Source: Eledone cirrhosa (lineage: Eukaryota). From it: a DNA stretch of 64,000 bases. Within the stretch, counting starts at the first letter, position 1. Each line of letters opens with the position of its first letter. Where the stretch lies: contig OZ024745.1 of the NCBI GenBank assembly GCA_964016885.1, positions 133,610,001 through 133,674,000 on the forward strand, written 5' to 3'. Of the stretch, positions 11,123 through 59,600 are shown piece by piece. Below the pieces are notes generated by a model. The model did no database searches. It saw nothing but the letters and a program-made list of their open reading frames with translations, and was not told the origin of the DNA. Both the position numbers and the translations under genes were made by a program.

Positions 11123-11392
11123 TATAAAGAAAAAGAGATGAAATCGAAAATGCAACTGGAGTCTTATTTTTAAAAAAAATATATATATTTATTTGGTTCC
11201 TTTACCGGTTTCGCAGTTCTTCTGCTTTTCAAAAGCAGAAGAACTGCGAAACCGGTAAAGGAACCAAATAAATATATATATATTTTTTTTAAATAAGACT
11301 CCAGTTGCATTTTCGATTTCATCTCTTTTTCTTTATACTTTCACTCGTGTAGGACACCTCGGTTATTTTTCATTGTGTAAAAAAAAACTCAC

Positions 11393-11398
<6 letters not shown>
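11123..11398 (+). mobile_element. Fold-back element: ~215-bp palindrome (11123-11337) containing the 3' half of a hammerhead
   Basis: Near-perfect inverted repeat centred at 11230; right arm gcagaagaactgc-GAAA-ccgg-TA-aagg; (TA)n on both sides. Confidence 0.8.
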
Positions 11399-14089: not shown

Positions 14090-14257
14090 TATAGATAGGT
14101 AAATATACACGGGTGTGTATGATTGTGTATAGAAGATTATATTAATAAGAGGAATTCCAACTTTGTCTGATTTACTCGTTTTATTTACAATCCTTTAAAA
14201 TATATAATGGTATTATAATGAAATAGTATGATAGAATATTAAATTCTAAGTGTTAAT

Positions 14258-14296
14258 TGAACAAGTACTTTCATGCTTTCGCAATCTTCAGGTTCA
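14258..14296 (-). ncRNA. Minimal type I hammerhead (family A)
   Basis: Reverse complement of 14370-14408. Confidence 0.8.
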
Positions 14297-14369
14297 TGAT
14301 ATGTGGTGACAGTCGAGTTTGCAATTTTCAACTGTTGAAAATTGCAAACTCGACTGTCACCACATATTA

Positions 14370-14408
14370 TGAACCTGAAGATTGCGAAAGCATGAAAGTA
14401 CTTGTTCA
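14370..14408 (+). ncRNA. Minimal type I hammerhead (family A)
   Basis: Identical to 1742-1780. Confidence 0.8.
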
Positions 14409-14578
14409 ATTAACACTTAGAATTTAATATTCTATCATACTATTTCATTATAATACCATTATATATTTTAAAGGATTGTAAATAAAACGAGTAAATCAGA
14501 CAAAGTTGGAATTCTTCTTATTAATATATATATATATATACACACGGGCTGACAAAAGCAAGAACATAATAAATTATA

Positions 14579-28877: not shown

Positions 28878-29523
28878 GTGTATATATGTATATATATATA
28901 TATCGTCTGCTGGTTGAGTGATTCCGTAGACTATCGTCATGTGATATGACTGTAAGAATACTATAGACGTTGAATCTAAGAACACATTTATATAACTAGT
29001 CTGTCTAGGTGTCTATCAAGTCGTCTTAACATACCAGGCTTGTGTAGTTGTCCGGTAGGTATACAGACATGTTTAATTCCCACAAACAGTATTATCGTAT
29101 ATTTTTTTATCATATTTAGCATGTGTATAAGTTTGGCCCTGCTTTCTTTTTTCAGTTGTCATATTTTCACTGGGTAATCCTCCTGCGTAACTTAACGAAT
29201 TTCCTTACACCTTTCTTATCTGTAGTCTTTGCTTTTCGATTTGTAAAAGTTCACTACGTAATGTATATACAGTGTCCTGTAGTGTTATTTTCTCTATATT
29301 TTTTATGTATATGTCTGACTTGACAATAATTTCCATATTTTGCAATTGCTCAAATGTTTACCTTCTTCTATACCCACTCTGCTTCTTCCAATGCATAGAA
29401 TATTCCCCTGCTTTCTGGTCGAGTTGTTAGCTATGTTGCCATTTCAATATGTCTACACCTCGATGTGAAAATGTACAAATAAATATTAAGATGTATCGAA
29501 CACGATACATGACAACCACCAGA

Positions 29524-32500
29524 TCACAATTGTCTAACACCAAAACACAATTGGCTAAGATCAGAACACATTTGTCTGAAACTAGAACACAATAGTCTAA
29601 GACCAGAACACAATTGTCTGAGACTAGAACACAATTGTCTGAGACCAGAACACAATTGGCTGAGACTAGAACACAATTGGCTGAAACCAGAACACAATTG
29701 TCTGAGACCAGAACACAATTGTCTGAGACTAGAACACAATTGTCTGAGACCAGAACACAATTGTCTGAGACTAGAACACAATTGTCTGAGACCAGAACAC
29801 AATTGCCTGAGACTAGAACACAACTGTCTGTTGACCAGAACACAATTGACTGAAACCAGAACACAATTGTCTAAGACCAGAACGAAATTGTCTGAGACCA
29901 GAACACGACTGTCTGAGACTAGAACACAATTGTCTGAGACTAGAACACAACTGTCTGAAACCAGAACATAATTGTCTGAGACTAGAATACAACTGTCTGA
30001 GACCAGAACATAATTGTCTGAGACCAGAATACAATTGTCTGAAACCAGAACACAATTGTCTGAGACCAGAACACAATTGTCTGAGACCAGAACACAATTG
30101 TCTGAAACCAGAACAGAATTGTCTGAAACCAGAACACAATTGTCTGAAACCAGAACACAATTGTCTGAAACCAGAACACAATTGTCTGAGACTAGAACAC
30201 AATTGTCTGAAACCAGAACACAATTGTCTGAGACCAGAACACAATTGTCTGAGACCAGAACACAATTGTCTGAGACCAGAACACAATTGTCTCAGACCAG
30301 AACAAAATTGTCTGAAACCAGAACACAATTGTCTGAAACCAGAACACAACTGTCTGAAACCAGAACACAATTGTCTGAAACCAGAACATAATTGTCTGAA
30401 ACCAGAACACAATTGTCTGAAACCAGAACACAATTGTCTGAGACTAGAACACAATTGTCTGAGAACAGAACACATTTGTCTGAGACCAGAACACAATTGT
30501 CTGAGACCAGAACACGTTTGTCTGAGACTAGAACACAACTGTCTGAGACCAGAACACAATTGTCTGAGACGAGACACAATTGTCTGAAACCAGAACACAT
30601 TTGTCTGAGACCAGAACACAATTGTCTGAAACCAGAACACAATTGTCTGAAACCAGAACACAACTGTCTGAAACCAGAACACAATTGTCTGAAACCAGAA
30701 CATAATTGTCTGAAACCAGAACACAATTGTCTGAAACCAGAACACAATTGTCTGAGAGTAGAACACAATTGTCTGAGACTAGAACACAATTGTCTGAGAC
30801 TAGAACACAATTGTCTGGGACCAGAACACATTTGTCTGAGACCAGAACACATTTGTCTGAGACTAGAACACAACTGTCTGAGACCAGTACTCAACTGTCT
30901 GAGACCAGAACACAATTGTCTGAGACCAGAACACAATTGTCTGAGACTAGAACACAATTGTCTGAGAACAGAACACATTTGTCTGAGACCAGAACACAAT
31001 TGTCTGAGACCAGAACACGTTTGTCTGAGACTAGAACACAACTGTCTGAGACCAGAACACAATTGTCTGAGACCAGAACACAATTGTCTGAGACCAGAAC
31101 ACAATTGTCTGAGACCAGAACACAATTGTCTGAAACCAGAACACATTTGTCTGAGACCAGAACACAATTGTCTGAAACCAGAACACAATTGTATGAAACC
31201 AGAACACAACTGTCTGAAACCAGAACACAATTGTCTGAAACCAGAACACAACTGTCTGAAACCAGAACACAATAGTCTGAGACTAGAACACAATTGTCTG
31301 AAACCAGAACACAATTGTCTGAAACCAGAACACAACTGTCTGAGACCAGAACACAATTGTCTGAGACCAGATCACAATTGTCTGAAACCAGAACACAATT
31401 GTCTGAAACCAGAACATAATTGTCTGAAACCAGAACACAATTGTCTGAAACCAGAACACAATTGTCTGAGACCAGAACACAATTGTCTGAGACTAGAACA
31501 CAATTGTCTGAGACTAGAACACAATTGTCTGGGACCAGAACACAATTGTCTGAGACCAGAACACATTTGTCTGAGACCAGAACACATTTGTCTGAGACTA
31601 GAAAACAACTGTCTGAGACCAGAACACAACTGTCTGAGACCAGAACACAATTGTCTGAGACCAGAACACAATTGTCTGAGACCAGAACACAATTGTCTGG
31701 GACCAGAACATAATTGTCTGAGACTAGAACACAACTGTCTGAGACCAGAACACAATTGTCTGAAACCAGAACATAATTGTCTGAAACCAGAACACAATTG
31801 TCTGAAACCAGAACACAATTGTCTGAGACCAGAACACAATTGTCTGAGACTAGAACACAATTGTCTGAGACTAGAACACAATTGTCTGAGACCAGAACAC
31901 AACTGTCTGAGAACAGAACACAATTGTCTGAGACCAGAACACAACTGTCTGAGACCAGAACACAATTGTCTGAGACCAGAACACAATTGTCTGAGACCAG
32001 AACACAATTGTCTGGGACCAGAACATAATTGTCTGAGACTAGAACACAACTGTCTGAGACCAGAACACAATTGTCTGAGACCAGAACACAATTGTCTGAG
32101 ACCAGAACACAATTTTCTGAAACCAGCACACACTTGTCTGAAACCAGAACACAATTGTCTGAGACTAGAACACAACAGTCTGAGACCAGAACACAATTGT
32201 CTGAGACTAGAACACAATTGTCTGAGAACAGAACACATTTGTCTGAGACCAGAACACAATTGTCTGAGACCAGAACACGTTTGTCTGAGACTAGAACACA
32301 ACTGTCTGAGACCAGAACACAATTGTCTGAGACGAGACACAATTGTCTGAAACCAGAACACATTTGTCTGAGACCAGAACACAATTGTCTGAAACCAGAA
32401 CATAATTGTCTGAAACCAGAACACAATTGTCTGAAACCAGAACACAATTGTCTGAGAGTAGAACACAATTGTCTGAGACTAGAACACAATTGTCTGAGAC

Positions 32501-35500
32501 TAGAACACAATTGTCTGGGACCAGAACACATTTGTCTGAGACCAGAACACATTTGTCTGAGACTAGAACACAACTGTCTGAGACCAGTACTCAACTGTCT
32601 GAGACCAGAACACAATTGTCTGAGACCAGAACACAATTGTCTGAGACTAGAACACAATTGTCTGAGAACAGAACACATTTGTCTGAGACCAGAACACAAT
32701 TGTCTGAGACCAGAACACGTTTGTCTGAGACTAGAACACAACTGTCTGAGACCAGAACACAATTGTCTGAGACGAGACACAATTGTCTGAAACCAGAACA
32801 CATTTGTCTGAGACCAGAACACAATTGTCTGAAACCAGACCACAATTGTCTGAAACCAGAACACAACTGTCTGAAACCAGAACACAATTGTCTGAAACCA
32901 GAACACAACTGTCTGAAACCAGAACACAATAGTCTGAGACTAGAACACAATTGTCTGAAACCAGAACACAATTGTCTGAAACCAGAACACAACTGTCTGA
33001 GACCAGAACACAATTGTCTGAGACCAGATCACAATTGTCTGAAACCAGAACACAATTGTCTGAAACCAGAACATAATTGTCTGAAACCAGAACACAATTG
33101 TCTGAAACCAGAACACAATTGTCTGAGACCAGAACACAATTGTCTGAGACTAGAACACAATTGTCTGAGACTAGAACACAATTGTCTGGGACCAGAACAC
33201 AATTGTCTGAGACCAGAACACATTTGTCTGAGACCAGAACACATTTGTCTGAGACTAGAAAACAACTGTCTGAGACCAGAACACAATTGTCTGAGACCAG
33301 AACACAACTGTCTGAGACCAGAACACAATTGTCTGAGACCAGAACACAATTGTCTGAGACCAGAACACAATTGTCTGGGACCAGAACATAATTGTCTGAG
33401 ACTAGAACACAACTGTCTGAGACCAGAACACAATTGTCTGAAACCAGAACATAATTGTCTGAAACCAGAACACAATTGTCTGAAACCAGAACACAATTGT
33501 CTGAGACCAGAACACAGTTGTCTGAGACTAGAACACAATTGTCTGAGACCAGAACACAATTGCCTGAGACCAGAACACAACTGTCTGAGAACAGAACACA
33601 ATTGTCTGAGACCAGAACACAACTGTCTGAGACCAGAACACAATTGTCTGAGACCAGAACACAATTGTCTGAGACCAGAACACAATTGTCTGGGACCAGA
33701 ACATAATTGTCTGAGACTAGAACACAACTGTCTGACACCAGAACACAATTGTCTGAGACCAGAACATAATTGTCTGAGACCAGAACACAATTTTCTGAAA
33801 CCAGCACACACTTGTCTGAAACCAGAACACAATTGTCTGAGACTAGAACACAATTGTCTGAGAACAGAACACATTTGTCTGAGACCAGAACACAATTGTC
33901 TGAAACCAGCACACACTTGACTGAGACCAGAACACAATTTTCTGAAACCAGCACACACTTGTCTGAAACCAGAACACAATTGTCTGAGACTAGAACACAA
34001 CAGTCTGAGAACAGAACACATTTGTCTGAGACCAGAACACAATTGTCTGAGACCAGAACACGTTTGTCTGAGACTAGAACACAACTGTCTGAAACCAGAA
34101 CACAATTGTCTGAAACCAGAACATAATTGTCTGAAACCAGAACACAATTGTCTGAAACCAGAACACAATTGTCTGAGAGTAGAACACAATTGTCTGAGAC
34201 TAGAACACAATTGTCTGAGACTAGAACACAATTGTCTGGGACCAGAACACATTTGTCTGAGACCAGAACACATTTGTCTGAGACTAGAACACAACTGTCT
34301 GAGACCAGTACACAACTGTCTGAGACCAGAACACAATTGTCTGAGACCAGAACACAACTGTCTGAGACCAGAACAAAATTGTCTGAGACCAGAACACAAT
34401 TGTCTGAGACCAGGACACAATTGTCTGAGACTAGAACACAATTGTCTGAGACCAGAACACAATTGTCTCAGACCAGAACACAATTGTTTGAAACCAGAAC
34501 ACAACTGTCTGAAACCAGAACACAATTGTCTGAGACCAGAACACAATTGTCTGAGAACAGAACACATTTGTCTGAGACGAGACACAATTGTCTGAAACCA
34601 GAACACATTTGTCTGAGACCAGAACACAATTGTCTGAAACCAGACCACAATTGTCTGAAACCAGAACACAACTGTCTGAAACCAGAACACAATTGTCTGA
34701 AACCAGAACACAACTGTCTGAAACCAGAACACAATAGTCTGAGACTAGAACACAATTGTCTGAAACCAGAACACAATTGTCTGAGACGAGACACAATTGT
34801 CTGAAACCAGAACACATTTGTCTGAGACCAGAACACAATTGTCTGAAACCAGAACACAATTGTCTGAAACCAGAACACAACTGTCTGAAACCAGAACACA
34901 ATTGTCTGAAACCAGAACATAATTGTCTGAAACCAGAACACAATTGTCTGAAACCAGAACACAATTGTCTGAGAGTAGAACACAATTGTCTGAGACTAGA
35001 ACACAATTGTCTGAGACTAGAACACAATTGTCTGGGACCAGAACACATTTGTCTGAGACCAGAACACATTTGTCTGAGACTAGAACACAACTGTCTGAGA
35101 CCAGTACTCAACTGTCTGAGACCAGAACACAATTGTCTGAGACCAGAACACAATTGTCTGAGACTAGAACACAATTGTCTGAGAACAGAACACATTTGTC
35201 TGAGACCAGAACACAATTGTCTGAGACCAGAACACGTTTGTCTGAGACTAGAACACAACTGTCTGAGACCAGAACACAATTGTCTGAGACGAGACACAAT
35301 TGTCTGAAACCAGAACACATTTGTCTGAGACCAGAACACAATTGTCTGAAACCAGAACACAATTGTCTGAAACCAGAACACAACTGTCTGAAACCAGAAC
35401 ACAATTGTCTGAAACCAGAACACAACTGTCTGAAACCAGAACACAATAGTCTGAGACTAGAACACAATTGTCTGAAACCAGAACACAATTGTCTGAAACC

Positions 35501-38305
35501 AGAACACAACTGTCTGAGACCAGAACACAATTGTCTGAGACCAGATCACAATTGTCTGAAACCAGAACACAATTGTCTGAAACCAGAACATAATTGTCTG
35601 AAACCAGAACACAATTGTCTGAAACCAGAACACAATTGTCTGAGACCAGAACACAATTGTCTGAGACTAGAACACAATTGTCTGAGACTAGAACACAATT
35701 GTCTGGGACCAGAACACAATTGTCTGAGACCAGAACACATTCGTCTGAGACCAGAACACATTTGTCTGAGACTAGAAAACAACTGTCTGAGACCAGAACA
35801 CAATTGTCTGAGACCAGAACACAACTGTCTGAGACCAGAACACAATTGTCTGAGACCAGAACACAATTGTCTGAGACCAGAACACAATTGTCTGGGACCA
35901 GAACATAATTGTCTGAGACTAGAACACAACTGTCTGAGACCAGAACACAATTGTCTGAAACCAGAACATAATTGTCTGAAACCAGAACACAATTGTCTGA
36001 AACCAGAACACAATTGTCTGAGACCAGAACACAGTTGTCTGAGACTAGAACACAATTGTCTGAGACCAGAACACAATTGTCTGAGACCAGAACACAACTG
36101 TCTGAGAACAGAACACAATTGTCTGAGACCAGAACACAACTGTCTGAGACCAGAACACAATTGTCTGAGACCAGAACACAATTGTCTGAGACCAGAACAC
36201 AATTGTCTGGGACCAGAACATAATTGTCTGAGACTAGAACACAACTGTCTGACACCAGAACACAATTGTCTGAGACCAGAACACAATTGTCTGAGACCAG
36301 AACACAATTTTCTGAAACCAGCACACACTTGTCTGAAACCAGAACACAATTGTCTGAGACTAGAACACAATTGTCTGAGAACAGAACACATTTGTCTGAG
36401 ACCAGAACACAATTGTCTGAAACCAGCACACACTTGTCTGAGACCAGAACACAATTTTCTGAAACCAGCACACACTTGTCTGAAACCAGAACACAATTGT
36501 CTGAGACTAGAACACAACAGTCTGAGAACAGAACACATTTGTCTGAGACCAGAACACAATTGTCTGAGACCAGAACACGTTTGTCTGAGACTAGAACACA
36601 ACTGTCTGAAACCAGAACACAATTGTCTGAAACCAGAACATAATTGTCTGAAACCAGAACACAATTGTCTGAGAGTAGAACACAATTGTCTGAGACTAGA
36701 ACACAATTGTCTGAGACTAGAACACAATTGTCTGAGACCAGAACACAATTGTCTCAGACCAGAACACAATTGTCTGAAACCAGAACACAACTGTCTGAAA
36801 CCAGAACACAATTGTCTGAGACTAGAACACAATTGTCTGAGAACAGAACACATTTGTCTGAGACCAGAACACAATTGTCTGAGACCAGAACACGTTTGTC
36901 TGAGACTAGAACACAACTGTCTGAGACCAGAACACAATTGTCTGAGACGAGACACAATTGTCTGAAACCAGAACACATTTGTCTGAGACCAGAACACAAT
37001 TGTCTGAAACCAGAACACAATTGTCTGAAACCAGAACACAACTGTCTGAAACCAGAACACAATTGTCTGAAACCAGAACACAACTGTCTGAAACCAGAAC
37101 ACAATAGTCTGAGACTAGAACACAATTGTCTGAAACCAGAACACAATTGTCTGAAACCAGAACACAACTGTCTGAGACCAGAACACAATTGTCTGAGACC
37201 AGATCACAATTGTCTGGGACCAGAACACAATTGTCTGAAACCAGAACATAATTGTCTGAAACCAGAACACAATTGTCTGAAACCAGAACACAATTGTCTG
37301 AGACCAGAACACAATTGTCTGAGACTAGAACACAATTGTCTGAGACTAGAACACAATTGTCTGGGACCAGAACACAATTGTCTGAGACCAGAACACATTT
37401 GTCTGAGACCAGAACACATTTGTCTGAGACTAGAACACAACTGTCTGAGACCAGAACACAACTGTCTGAGACCAGAACACAATTTTCTGAGACCAGAACA
37501 CAACTGTCTGAGACCAGAACACAATTGTCTGAGACCAGAACACAATTGTCTGAGACCAGAACACAATTGTCTGGGACCAGAACATAATTGTCTGAGACTA
37601 GAACACAACTGTCTGAGACCAGAACACAATTGTCTGAAACCAAAACATAATTGTCTGAAACCAGAACACAATTGTCTGAAACCAGAACACAATTGTCTGA
37701 GACCAGAACACAATTGTCTGAGACTAGAACACAATTGTCTGAGACTAGAACACAATTGTCTGAGACCAGAACACAACTGTCTGAGAACAGAACACAATTG
37801 TCTGAGACCAGAACACAACTGTCTGAGACCAGAACACAATTGTCTGAGACCAGAACACAATTGTCTGAGACCAGAACACAATTGTCTGGGACCAGAACAT
37901 AATTGTCTGAGACTAGAACACAACTGTCTGAGACCAGAACACAATTGTCTGAAACCAGAACACAATTGTCTGAGACCAGAATACAATTTTCTGAAACCAG
38001 CACACACTTGTCTGAAACCAGAACACAATTGTCTGAGACTAGAACACAACAGTCTGAGACCAGAACACAATTGTCTGAGACTAGAACACAATTGTCTGAG
38101 AACAGAACACATTTGTCTGAGACCAGAACACAATTGTCTGAGACCAGAACACGTTTGTCTGAGACTAGAACACAACTGTCTGAGACCAGAACACAATTGT
38201 CTGAGACCAGAACACAATTGTCTGAGACTAGAACACAATTGTCTGAGAACAGAACACAATTGTCTGAGACTAGAACACAATTGTCTGAGAAATTGTCTGA
38301 GACCA
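29524..38305. repeat. 21-bp satellite array (ccagaacacaattgtctgaga), ~418 monomers, higher-order structure
   Basis: Continuous tandem array; 20-bp variant (gagacgagac) at 30566, 32329, 32769, 34574, 34783, 35286 and 36944. Confidence 0.99.
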
Positions 38306-39377: not shown

Positions 39378-39582
39378 TTAAATATGAAAAATCAATTCTT
39401 CTTCCAACAACAATGAAAGTTGATGAATCTGTTTTCCTCTACACTTGGAAACGTTATTCACATCTACACAACGGTACACATATTTATCATTGCATGGAAT
39501 TTTGTATAGTTTTATACATTCATACATGTACACACATATACATACACATACGCTGTCTCACACACATGTACAATATATATAT

Positions 39583-39780
39583 ATAGGAAAAAGTATGACC
39601 CCGACGGCAGAGCTCAAGCCGTTTCGACGGCTATTTCTGTACCAGAAATAGCCGTCGAAACGGCTTGAGCTCTGCCGTCGGGGTCATACTTTTTCCTATT
39701 TCCCACTCTACTACCCTAAGTATTGAGTAATCTGGTGCGTTATGGTCCATCTGGTTCCTTACCACGATTCCTTTGTTATA
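39583..39780 (+). mobile_element. Fold-back element: perfect 117-bp palindrome (39583-39699) containing the 3' half of a hammerhead
   Basis: Centre ~39641; right arm tagccgtc-GAAA-cggc ttgagctct gccg-TC-ggggtc; ends in (TA)n. Confidence 0.8.
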
Positions 39781-39809
39781 TATATATATTTATATATATA
39801 TATATATAT

Positions 39810-39935
39810 ATAACGAAGGAAATGTGGTAAGGAACCAAGTGGACCATAATGCACCAAAGTACTCAATACTTATTAGTCGTCGAATTAGCCGTCGAAACGG
39901 CTTCAGCTGAGCCGTCGGGGTCCTACTCGTTCCTA
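39810..39935. mobile_element. Second, diverged and rearranged copy of the 39.6-kb family
   Basis: 39810-39872 is the reverse complement of 39717-39780 with substitutions; 39885-39922 repeats the half-hammerhead with loop ttcagctga. Confidence 0.8.
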
Positions 39936-59339: not shown

Positions 59340-59341
<2 letters not shown>

Positions 59342-59600
59342 GTGGGAAAGTAAAAAATCGGAGAATAGACCGTTAAAACATGTTATTTTAAATAAACATG
59401 TTTTAACGGTCTATTCTCCGATTTTTTACTTTCCCACGTGCTTACGCTCTGCTAACTCTCTAGCCCACTAAATATTAACACTTCGAATATTTAATACTGC
59501 CGGCACTAGTATCGAGCACCTTTGGCATACGCTACTTGGCAAATAACTATATGTATCACCTATCCCTCCTTTTTCTCTCTTTCTCGATACGTAAATACTA
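59340..59600 (+). mobile_element. TA-flanked element with 100-bp fold-back palindrome (59340-59439)
   Basis: acgtgggaaagtaaaaaatcggagaatagaccgttaaaacatgtt / aacatgttttaacggtctattctccgattttttactttcccacgt. Confidence 0.75.

What the first reader, a model, noticed from the sequence alone, without database searches (positions are those of the whole stretch)
39583..39699. Second case of fold-back centred on a putative hammerhead stem II
Seen: a perfect palindrome centred in gacggctatttctg-tac-cagaaatagccgtc, directly followed by GAAA-cggc[loop]gccg-TC-ggggtc (GUC triplet). The family is unrelated to that at 11.2 kb but has the same geometry, which strengthens the ribozyme-guided snap-back model. 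Perfect arm identity suggests a young insertion.
Basis: inference. Interest (0 to 1): 0.7.

Follow-up and report, generated by a model that had tools for sequence, protein, structure and literature searches.

The report
Penelope stub folded inside variant hammerhead
This palindrome is one of tens of thousands of short back-to-back stubs of a Penelope-like jumping gene, whose full-length copies carry a predicted self-cutting hammerhead with a rarer core; the stubs likely meet where the element's RNA begins, not at a point set by the ribozyme.

Summary
The palindrome is real: 57-bp perfect arms around a 3-nt spacer. It is a ~195-bp head-to-head stub of the pseudo-LTR of a ~3-kb Penelope-like retroelement with Hydra-clade motifs, inserted in (TA)n; at least 47,693 such arms exist. 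The window copy has only the 3' half. Ribozyme-guided snap-back is not supported: 0 of 379 inverted-arm contexts keep loop II, and the 11.2-kb and 14.3-kb families usually fold 40-45 nt upstream of their cores. 95 of 103 arms stop within 13 nt of one Inr-like edge, and 46 of 46 pairs carry exactly one tail. Most likely both nicked target strands prime copies that run off a short RNA's 5' end and are end-joined (inferred; no RNA data). Inverted truncated copies with a tail are known for this class, and the scan has reported this pattern on other DNA of the same genome.

The parts
39573..39585 (.). (TA)n target, left side (overlaps the first three bases of the palindrome)
   Evidence: 42 of 46 tailless arms run into TA repeats
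39583..39639 (-). Inverted, tailless pLTR arm; its outer end is the first of two fixed 3' ends of the element
   Evidence: 9 of 13 downstream pLTRs of long copies end at the same site
39640..39642 (.). Junction spacer TAC, a one-base variant of the common CTGG-A/T-CCAG centre
39643..39699 (+). Forward pLTR arm, starting a few nt inside the family's upstream edge (TTAGTC, in hammerhead loop II)
39646..39684 (+). 3' half of a predicted type I hammerhead: stem II 3' strand 39646-39656, GAA 39657-39659, stem III 39660-39678, predicted cut after C 39679, stem I 3' strand 39680-39684; the 5' core half is absent
39700..39777 (+). 78-nt tail, ending at the second fixed 3' end; in long copies it leads on into the 5' leader of the ORF
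39778..39811 (.). (TA)n target, right side, shared with the next insertion
39812..39935 (+). Second, independent insertion of a sister subfamily: inverted partial tail 39812-39872, filler, tailless forward arm 39882-39935. The two facing tails make the imperfect hairpin 39717-39872 that scores below threshold on miRNA models

Best explanation
The palindrome is a short head-to-head insertion of the pseudo-LTR of a Penelope-like retroelement with Hydra-clade motifs, likely made when both nicked strands of a (TA)n target each prime a copy of a short element RNA, both copies run to that RNA's 5' end, and the two ends are joined. Shown: the parent element, the intact hammerhead-shaped pLTR with a U3-A8 core, two fixed 3' ends, exactly one tail per pair, a sharp upstream edge and heterogeneous junctions. 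Inferred: the two 3' ends are internal priming sites of the RT (by analogy with PAc); the edge is a promoter start site (TATTTA-like word 29-31 nt before an Inr-like TTAGTC); joining is by microhomology or filler. If the RNA starts there it lacks the 5' half of the core and could not self-cleave in cis, so the centre falls in loop II only because the predicted start site lies there in this family.
For: Parent: 20 of 20 fetched copies of the ORF region carry this arm nearby; RWR 18, DKT 18, YRD[DN]G 14, VIY..YIG 12 of 20. Tail: one tail in 46 of 46 unselected pairs and 89 of 92 in all; 9 of 13 long copies end at the tailless site, 3 at the tail end, 1 shorter. PAc cleaves and extends both strands and primes at two internal sites separated by the tail (PMC11167929, parts 1-2 of 4 read). 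Edge: 95 of 103 arms stop within 13 nt upstream of GAAWTAG, 8 continue into the parent. Contigs of 4 public runs (1 study, kind unrecorded) show a roughly 20-fold depth step and loose ends at the A/G of AGTCC (rough, not a copy number). TATTTA/TATTCA sits 29-31 nt upstream in 40 of 42 intact contexts. Junctions: 40 distinct strings in 46 pairs, 4 with zero spacer, several with templated-looking filler; either arm can be the longer. One pair (L160) joins two recurrent subfamily variants, and L118/L125 carry one variant on opposite single arms.
Against: No RNA evidence for a start site. Arms share a subfamily segment in 33 of 46 pairs (shuffle mean 6.4, max 14) and some share rare variants, which fits one template or cDNA fold-back equally well. 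A cap-derived G was not evident: the base before AGTCCA was C 9, G 4, A 1 of 14; only the loose-end consensus hints at G. The edge coincides with the 3' strand of an inner loop II hairpin, so an RT stall is not excluded. The TATA-like word is also the 5' strand of stem II, so its conservation is not independent evidence; the D. virilis Penelope promoter is TATA-less (PMC2377424, abstract). The samples are the first hits on one contig.
Confidence: 0.58

Rival explanations
1. One priming event; the cDNA runs off the same RNA 5' end, folds back on a micro-palindrome, copies itself and joins the second target end at the TAT microhomology (self-priming, related to the proposal of Arkhipova et al. 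2013).
For: Arms usually match in subfamily (33 of 46) and share rare variants; some junctions are micro-palindromes; palindromes at inverted junctions were read as self-priming in PMC3846280 (passages).
Against: The tailless end is also the commonest plain 3' end of long copies (9 of 13); zero-spacer junctions (4 of 46) and filler; discordant recurrent variants in L160, L118, L125.
Confidence: 0.22
2. The edge is not a start site: RT stalls on full-length RNA at the inner hairpin of loop II, or the RNA is processed there, and the stalled cDNAs are joined.
For: The edge lies on the 3' strand of a predicted 6-7 bp inner hairpin.
Against: RT passes stems III and II in most tail arms (read by eye); thousands of copies read through the hairpin (5,626); the other two families have edges away from their hammerheads.
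Confidence: 0.14
3. One reading: hammerhead stem II guides a template switch from RNA to nascent cDNA.
For: The centre does lie in loop II of a predicted hammerhead.
Against: The predicted product keeps loop II; 0 of 379 inverted-arm contexts do. The 11.2-kb family mostly reaches an edge about 45 nt upstream of its core, and the 14.3-kb family about 40 nt upstream.
Confidence: 0.05

Closest known systems
Hydra clade of C-terminal EN+ Penelope-like elements (Craig et al. 2021, PMC8557442; section 11 and passages read)
   Same: About 3 kb, single RT-EN ORF, DKT, CxCX5C linker, CxxC and CxH near the EN E and N, (TA)n insertion, hammerhead in the pLTR.
   Different: RWR in place of RWK; hammerhead core U3-A8 or C3/A8 rather than canonical; short stubs outnumber intact pLTRs several-fold. 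No tree was built.
PLE insertions with an inverted 5'-truncated copy and optional tail (PMC8557442 passages; PMC3846280 passages; PAc, PMC11167929)
   Same: Head-to-head inverted copy, tail on one end only, AT-rich targets, palindromic junction.
   Different: Tail is 78 nt against 30-40; both copies are cut to about 55 nt at one edge, so the whole insertion is a ~195-bp stub.
PLE hammerheads with U3-A8 core (Cervera and De la Pena 2014, PMC4209133, parts 1-2 of 4 read; Perreault et al. 2011, PMC3088659, passages)
   Same: Type I, in the pLTR, long helix II, short helix I, U3-A8 covariation.
   Different: Closed 5-bp helix III with a 9-nt loop holding a palindromic hexamer instead of a minimal helix III; a subfamily of 1,786 copies has a C3/A8 mismatch.

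Membership tests
Hydra-clade PLE | Single ORF with RT and C-terminal GIY-YIG endonuclease, about 3 kb, between pLTRs | tested here: met
   motifs in order across broken frames; no intact ORF among 20 copies
Hydra-clade PLE | DKT in place of DKG | tested here: met
   18 of 20 loci
Hydra-clade PLE | N-terminal RWK motif | tested here: inconclusive
   RWR (KWR in P0001) at the matching place, 18 of 20 loci; a conservative change
Hydra-clade PLE | CxCX5C linker, CCHH absent, CxxC and CxH around E and N | tested here: met
   The CxCX5C pattern hit 16 of 20 loci, 13 at the linker and 3 only in microsatellite frames; one Cys inside the GIY-YIG core; CNLC and CKH seen in the 3 copies printed
Hydra-clade PLE | Insertion into (TA)n | tested here: met
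   42 of 46 tailless arms
Hydra-clade PLE | Canonical hammerhead in the pLTR | tested here: inconclusive
   Hammerhead-shaped motif present but with a variant core
Hydra-clade PLE | Phylogenetic placement of the RT | not tested
   No reference set at hand; supplementary files of PMC8557442 not opened
Type I hammerhead (intact pLTR) | Three stems around the core | tested here: met
   94.8% of 498 cells paired in 25 copies, slid controls 29-58%; unconstrained MFE is the three-way junction in 3 of 4 copies, z -2.2, -2.2, -0.7
Type I hammerhead (intact pLTR) | Canonical CUGANGA core | tested here: not met
   11 of 7,159
Type I hammerhead (intact pLTR) | Watson-Crick 3-8 pair, free N7, GAAA, UH | tested here: met
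   U3-A8 in 5,338 of 7,159; N7 takes all four bases; not met in the 1,786 C3/A8 copies
Type I hammerhead (intact pLTR) | Compensatory changes in stems | tested here: inconclusive
   0 pairs changed on both sides; copies are 90% identical
Type I hammerhead (intact pLTR) | Self-cleavage | not testable with these tools
   Needs an in vitro assay; genomic trace at the cut site is confounded by microhomology
Type I hammerhead (window copy) | Complete core | tested here: not met
   5' half absent; the palindrome folds as one 57-bp hairpin; no Rfam hammerhead among the 150 best of 220 hits shown

The most novel reading that the evidence does not exclude
This element's promoter fires inside its own hammerhead, so the short RNA is a half-ribozyme that cannot cut itself while read-through RNA carries the whole one; twin priming on that short RNA has written tens of thousands of palindromes that map the RNA's start and both RT priming sites in the genome, and a subfamily with a broken 3-8 pair spread anyway, showing cleavage is dispensable for PLE mobility in vivo.
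Probability: 0.35. Interest if true: 0.6.

Novelty: new member of a known kind. Interest (0 to 1): 0.33.

Why it matters
How Penelope-like elements build their inverted ends and what their hammerheads do are stated open questions (PMC8557442, passages). This family gives a small testable substrate: two fixed 3' ends, one upstream edge, and natural U3-A8 against C3/A8 cores. The single palindrome itself is an ordinary, likely inert copy among tens of thousands.

Tried and rejected
Searches (CTGANGA within 30 nt of the arm, 39 hits; 19 hits, control 5) gave junction or chance sequences, not intact cores; the gap was too short for the real spacing. Cap-G idea: suggested (conditioned on G), not supported in the unselected sample (G 4 of 14); left open because of the loose-end consensus. 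Fossil of self-cleavage: about 8 of 100 tail arms start at or 1 nt after the cut site (counted by eye); in a targeted sample 12 of 100 did, but 9 of these overlap the partner arm's end, and spikes of 5 and 6 occur at other microhomologies (by eye); not accepted as evidence. A-to-G editing: A>G 2 of 198 variant calls in RNA sense; T>C 34, many of them from misassigned subfamilies; not pursued. No RNA holder listed. Pfam found nothing for the N-terminal piece. Rfam gave only sub-threshold miRNA hits among the rows shown. One search used a mis-registered structure and was replaced. One search contained duplicate loci and was replaced for pair counts. A paper on tolerance of the 3-8 pair was not held and one search found none; that a C3/A8 mismatch lowers cleavage is recalled, not read. 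Splice acceptor at the edge rejected: no shared upstream exon in short copies. Paper searches listed no description of this family or of start-site-bounded stubs; the library lacks most subscription journals and Repbase.

Full report
Observation. The window holds a perfect inverted repeat at 39583-39699 with 57-bp arms and the spacer TAC. It continues into a 78-nt tail (39700-39777), and both ends run into (TA)n. A second copy from a sister subfamily follows at 39812-39935.

Family. A DNA search of the own genome (3.0 Gb) returned 40 of 40 scored candidates as full-length palindromes at 96-100% identity, out of 1,229 candidates. An exact 20-nt arm pattern has 47,693 hits and a tail pattern 35,480, with reversed controls at 0. 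Each insertion is (TA)n, inverted tailless arm, variable junction, forward arm, tail, (TA)n.

Parent. One locus showed the tail running on into a leader and an ORF start. Twenty copies of that region were fetched. They are ~3-kb elements with broken frames holding RWR (18 of 20), DKT (18), an FDI.S motif (12), YRD[DN]G (14), a CxCX5C linker and a C-terminal VIY..YIG endonuclease (12), flanked by this arm. These fit the description of the Hydra clade in PMC8557442, section 11, except RWR for RWK. No tree was built, so the clade call rests on motifs.

Hammerhead. In 13 of 13 downstream pLTRs aligned, the arm is preceded by a stem I 5' strand (ACCCC or a close variant), a UUGANAA core, G, two bases, the stem II 5' strand and a ~33-nt loop II extension. 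At least 5,626 intact contexts exist. In one fixed context the core is U3-A8 in 5,338, C3/A8 in 1,786, U3/G8 in 24 and canonical C3-G8 in 11. N7 takes all four bases. The three-stem structure is paired in 94.8% of cells in 25 copies, with no double-sided change, and is the unconstrained minimum-energy fold in 3 of 4 copies tested; the C3/A8 copy folds otherwise. U3-A8 is a natural covariation reported as active in vitro (PMC3088659, passage) and found in schistosome PLEs (PMC4209133). Activity here is untested. The window copy lacks the 5' half and would fold as one long hairpin.

Where the centre comes from. In the first 100 hits of the arm pattern plus neighbours (103 arms), 95 stop within 13 nt upstream of GAAWTAG and 8 continue into the parent. 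This sample cannot see arms cut further downstream; those form a minority in a tail-anchored sample (by eye). Contigs of four public runs of one study show a ~20-fold depth step and loose ends at the same two bases. The edge reads TTAGTC, Inr-like (consensus recalled), 29-31 nt after TATTTA/TATTCA in 40 of 42 intact contexts; a TATA plus Inr arrangement in a pLTR was noted in PMC3846280. A template switch guided by stem II would keep loop II between the arms; 0 of 379 inverted-arm contexts do (contexts from overlapping loci are not fully independent). In the 11.2-kb family most short copies in hand reach an edge about 45 nt upstream of a UUGAAAA core, and the window's copy is an exception folded at a micro-palindrome inside the core. 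The 14.3-kb family folds about 40 nt upstream of an intact CUGAAGA core. So the centre does not track the ribozyme.

How the pair forms. Exactly one arm has the tail in 46 of 46 unselected pairs and 89 of 92 overall. The tailless end is also where 9 of 13 long copies end. PAc primes at two internal sites that bound the tail and extends both target strands (PMC11167929). Junctions are 40 different strings in 46 pairs, some with filler, 4 with no spacer. I infer twin priming followed by end joining. Against this, arms match in subfamily in 33 of 46 pairs against 6.4 by shuffling, so both come from one RNA or one source locus, which fold-back of a single cDNA also explains. One clear chimera (L160) and two pairs with a variant on opposite single arms (L118, L125) favour two templates but are few.

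Negative results. No clear cap-derived G, no cut-site signal beyond microhomology, no RNA holder listed.

Age. The window insertion differs at 4 of 196 positions from the nearest of 19 relatives; its arms equal the commonest haplotype (41 of 184 arms); 11 of 46 unselected pairs have identical arms. It is recent but typical.

Verdict. A new member of a known kind: the inverted, truncated, tailed PLE insertion (PMC8557442; PMC3846280). The variant core, the mismatch subfamily and the sharp edge add modest interest. My reading was recorded before the look-up; earlier notes of this scan on other DNA of the same genome reach similar readings and are not counted as support.

Noticed in passing
window 11129-11398: Stub of a second PLE-like family; intact relatives carry a minimal hammerhead, also with a UUGAAAA (U3-A8) core; usual edge about 45 nt upstream of the core.
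   Followed up: partly
window 14124-14542 and 1672-1800: Third family; palindrome with an intact CUGAAGA hammerhead-like motif on both arms, centre about 40 nt upstream of the core.
   Followed up: partly
window 59340-59540: Fourth palindrome with the same (TA)n, short arm, long arm layout; no relative in the 0.85 Mb in hand and no hammerhead seen.
   Followed up: no
window 29518-38290: 8.8-kb array of a 21-bp unit, 418 copies, 91% matches, with long open frames on both strands.
   Followed up: no
genome-wide, e.g. L191, L207: A subfamily with a C3/A8 mismatch in the hammerhead core has 1,786 copies; its tested copy does not fold into the hammerhead by default.
   Followed up: partly
L047:-, L089:+, L125:-, L085:+: Other type I hammerhead-like motifs with closed stem III, two with U3-A8 cores, from unrelated repeats.
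   Followed up: no
L035: A chimera in which an arm of this family is joined directly to the 14.3-kb family's palindrome, suggesting joining across families.
   Followed up: no
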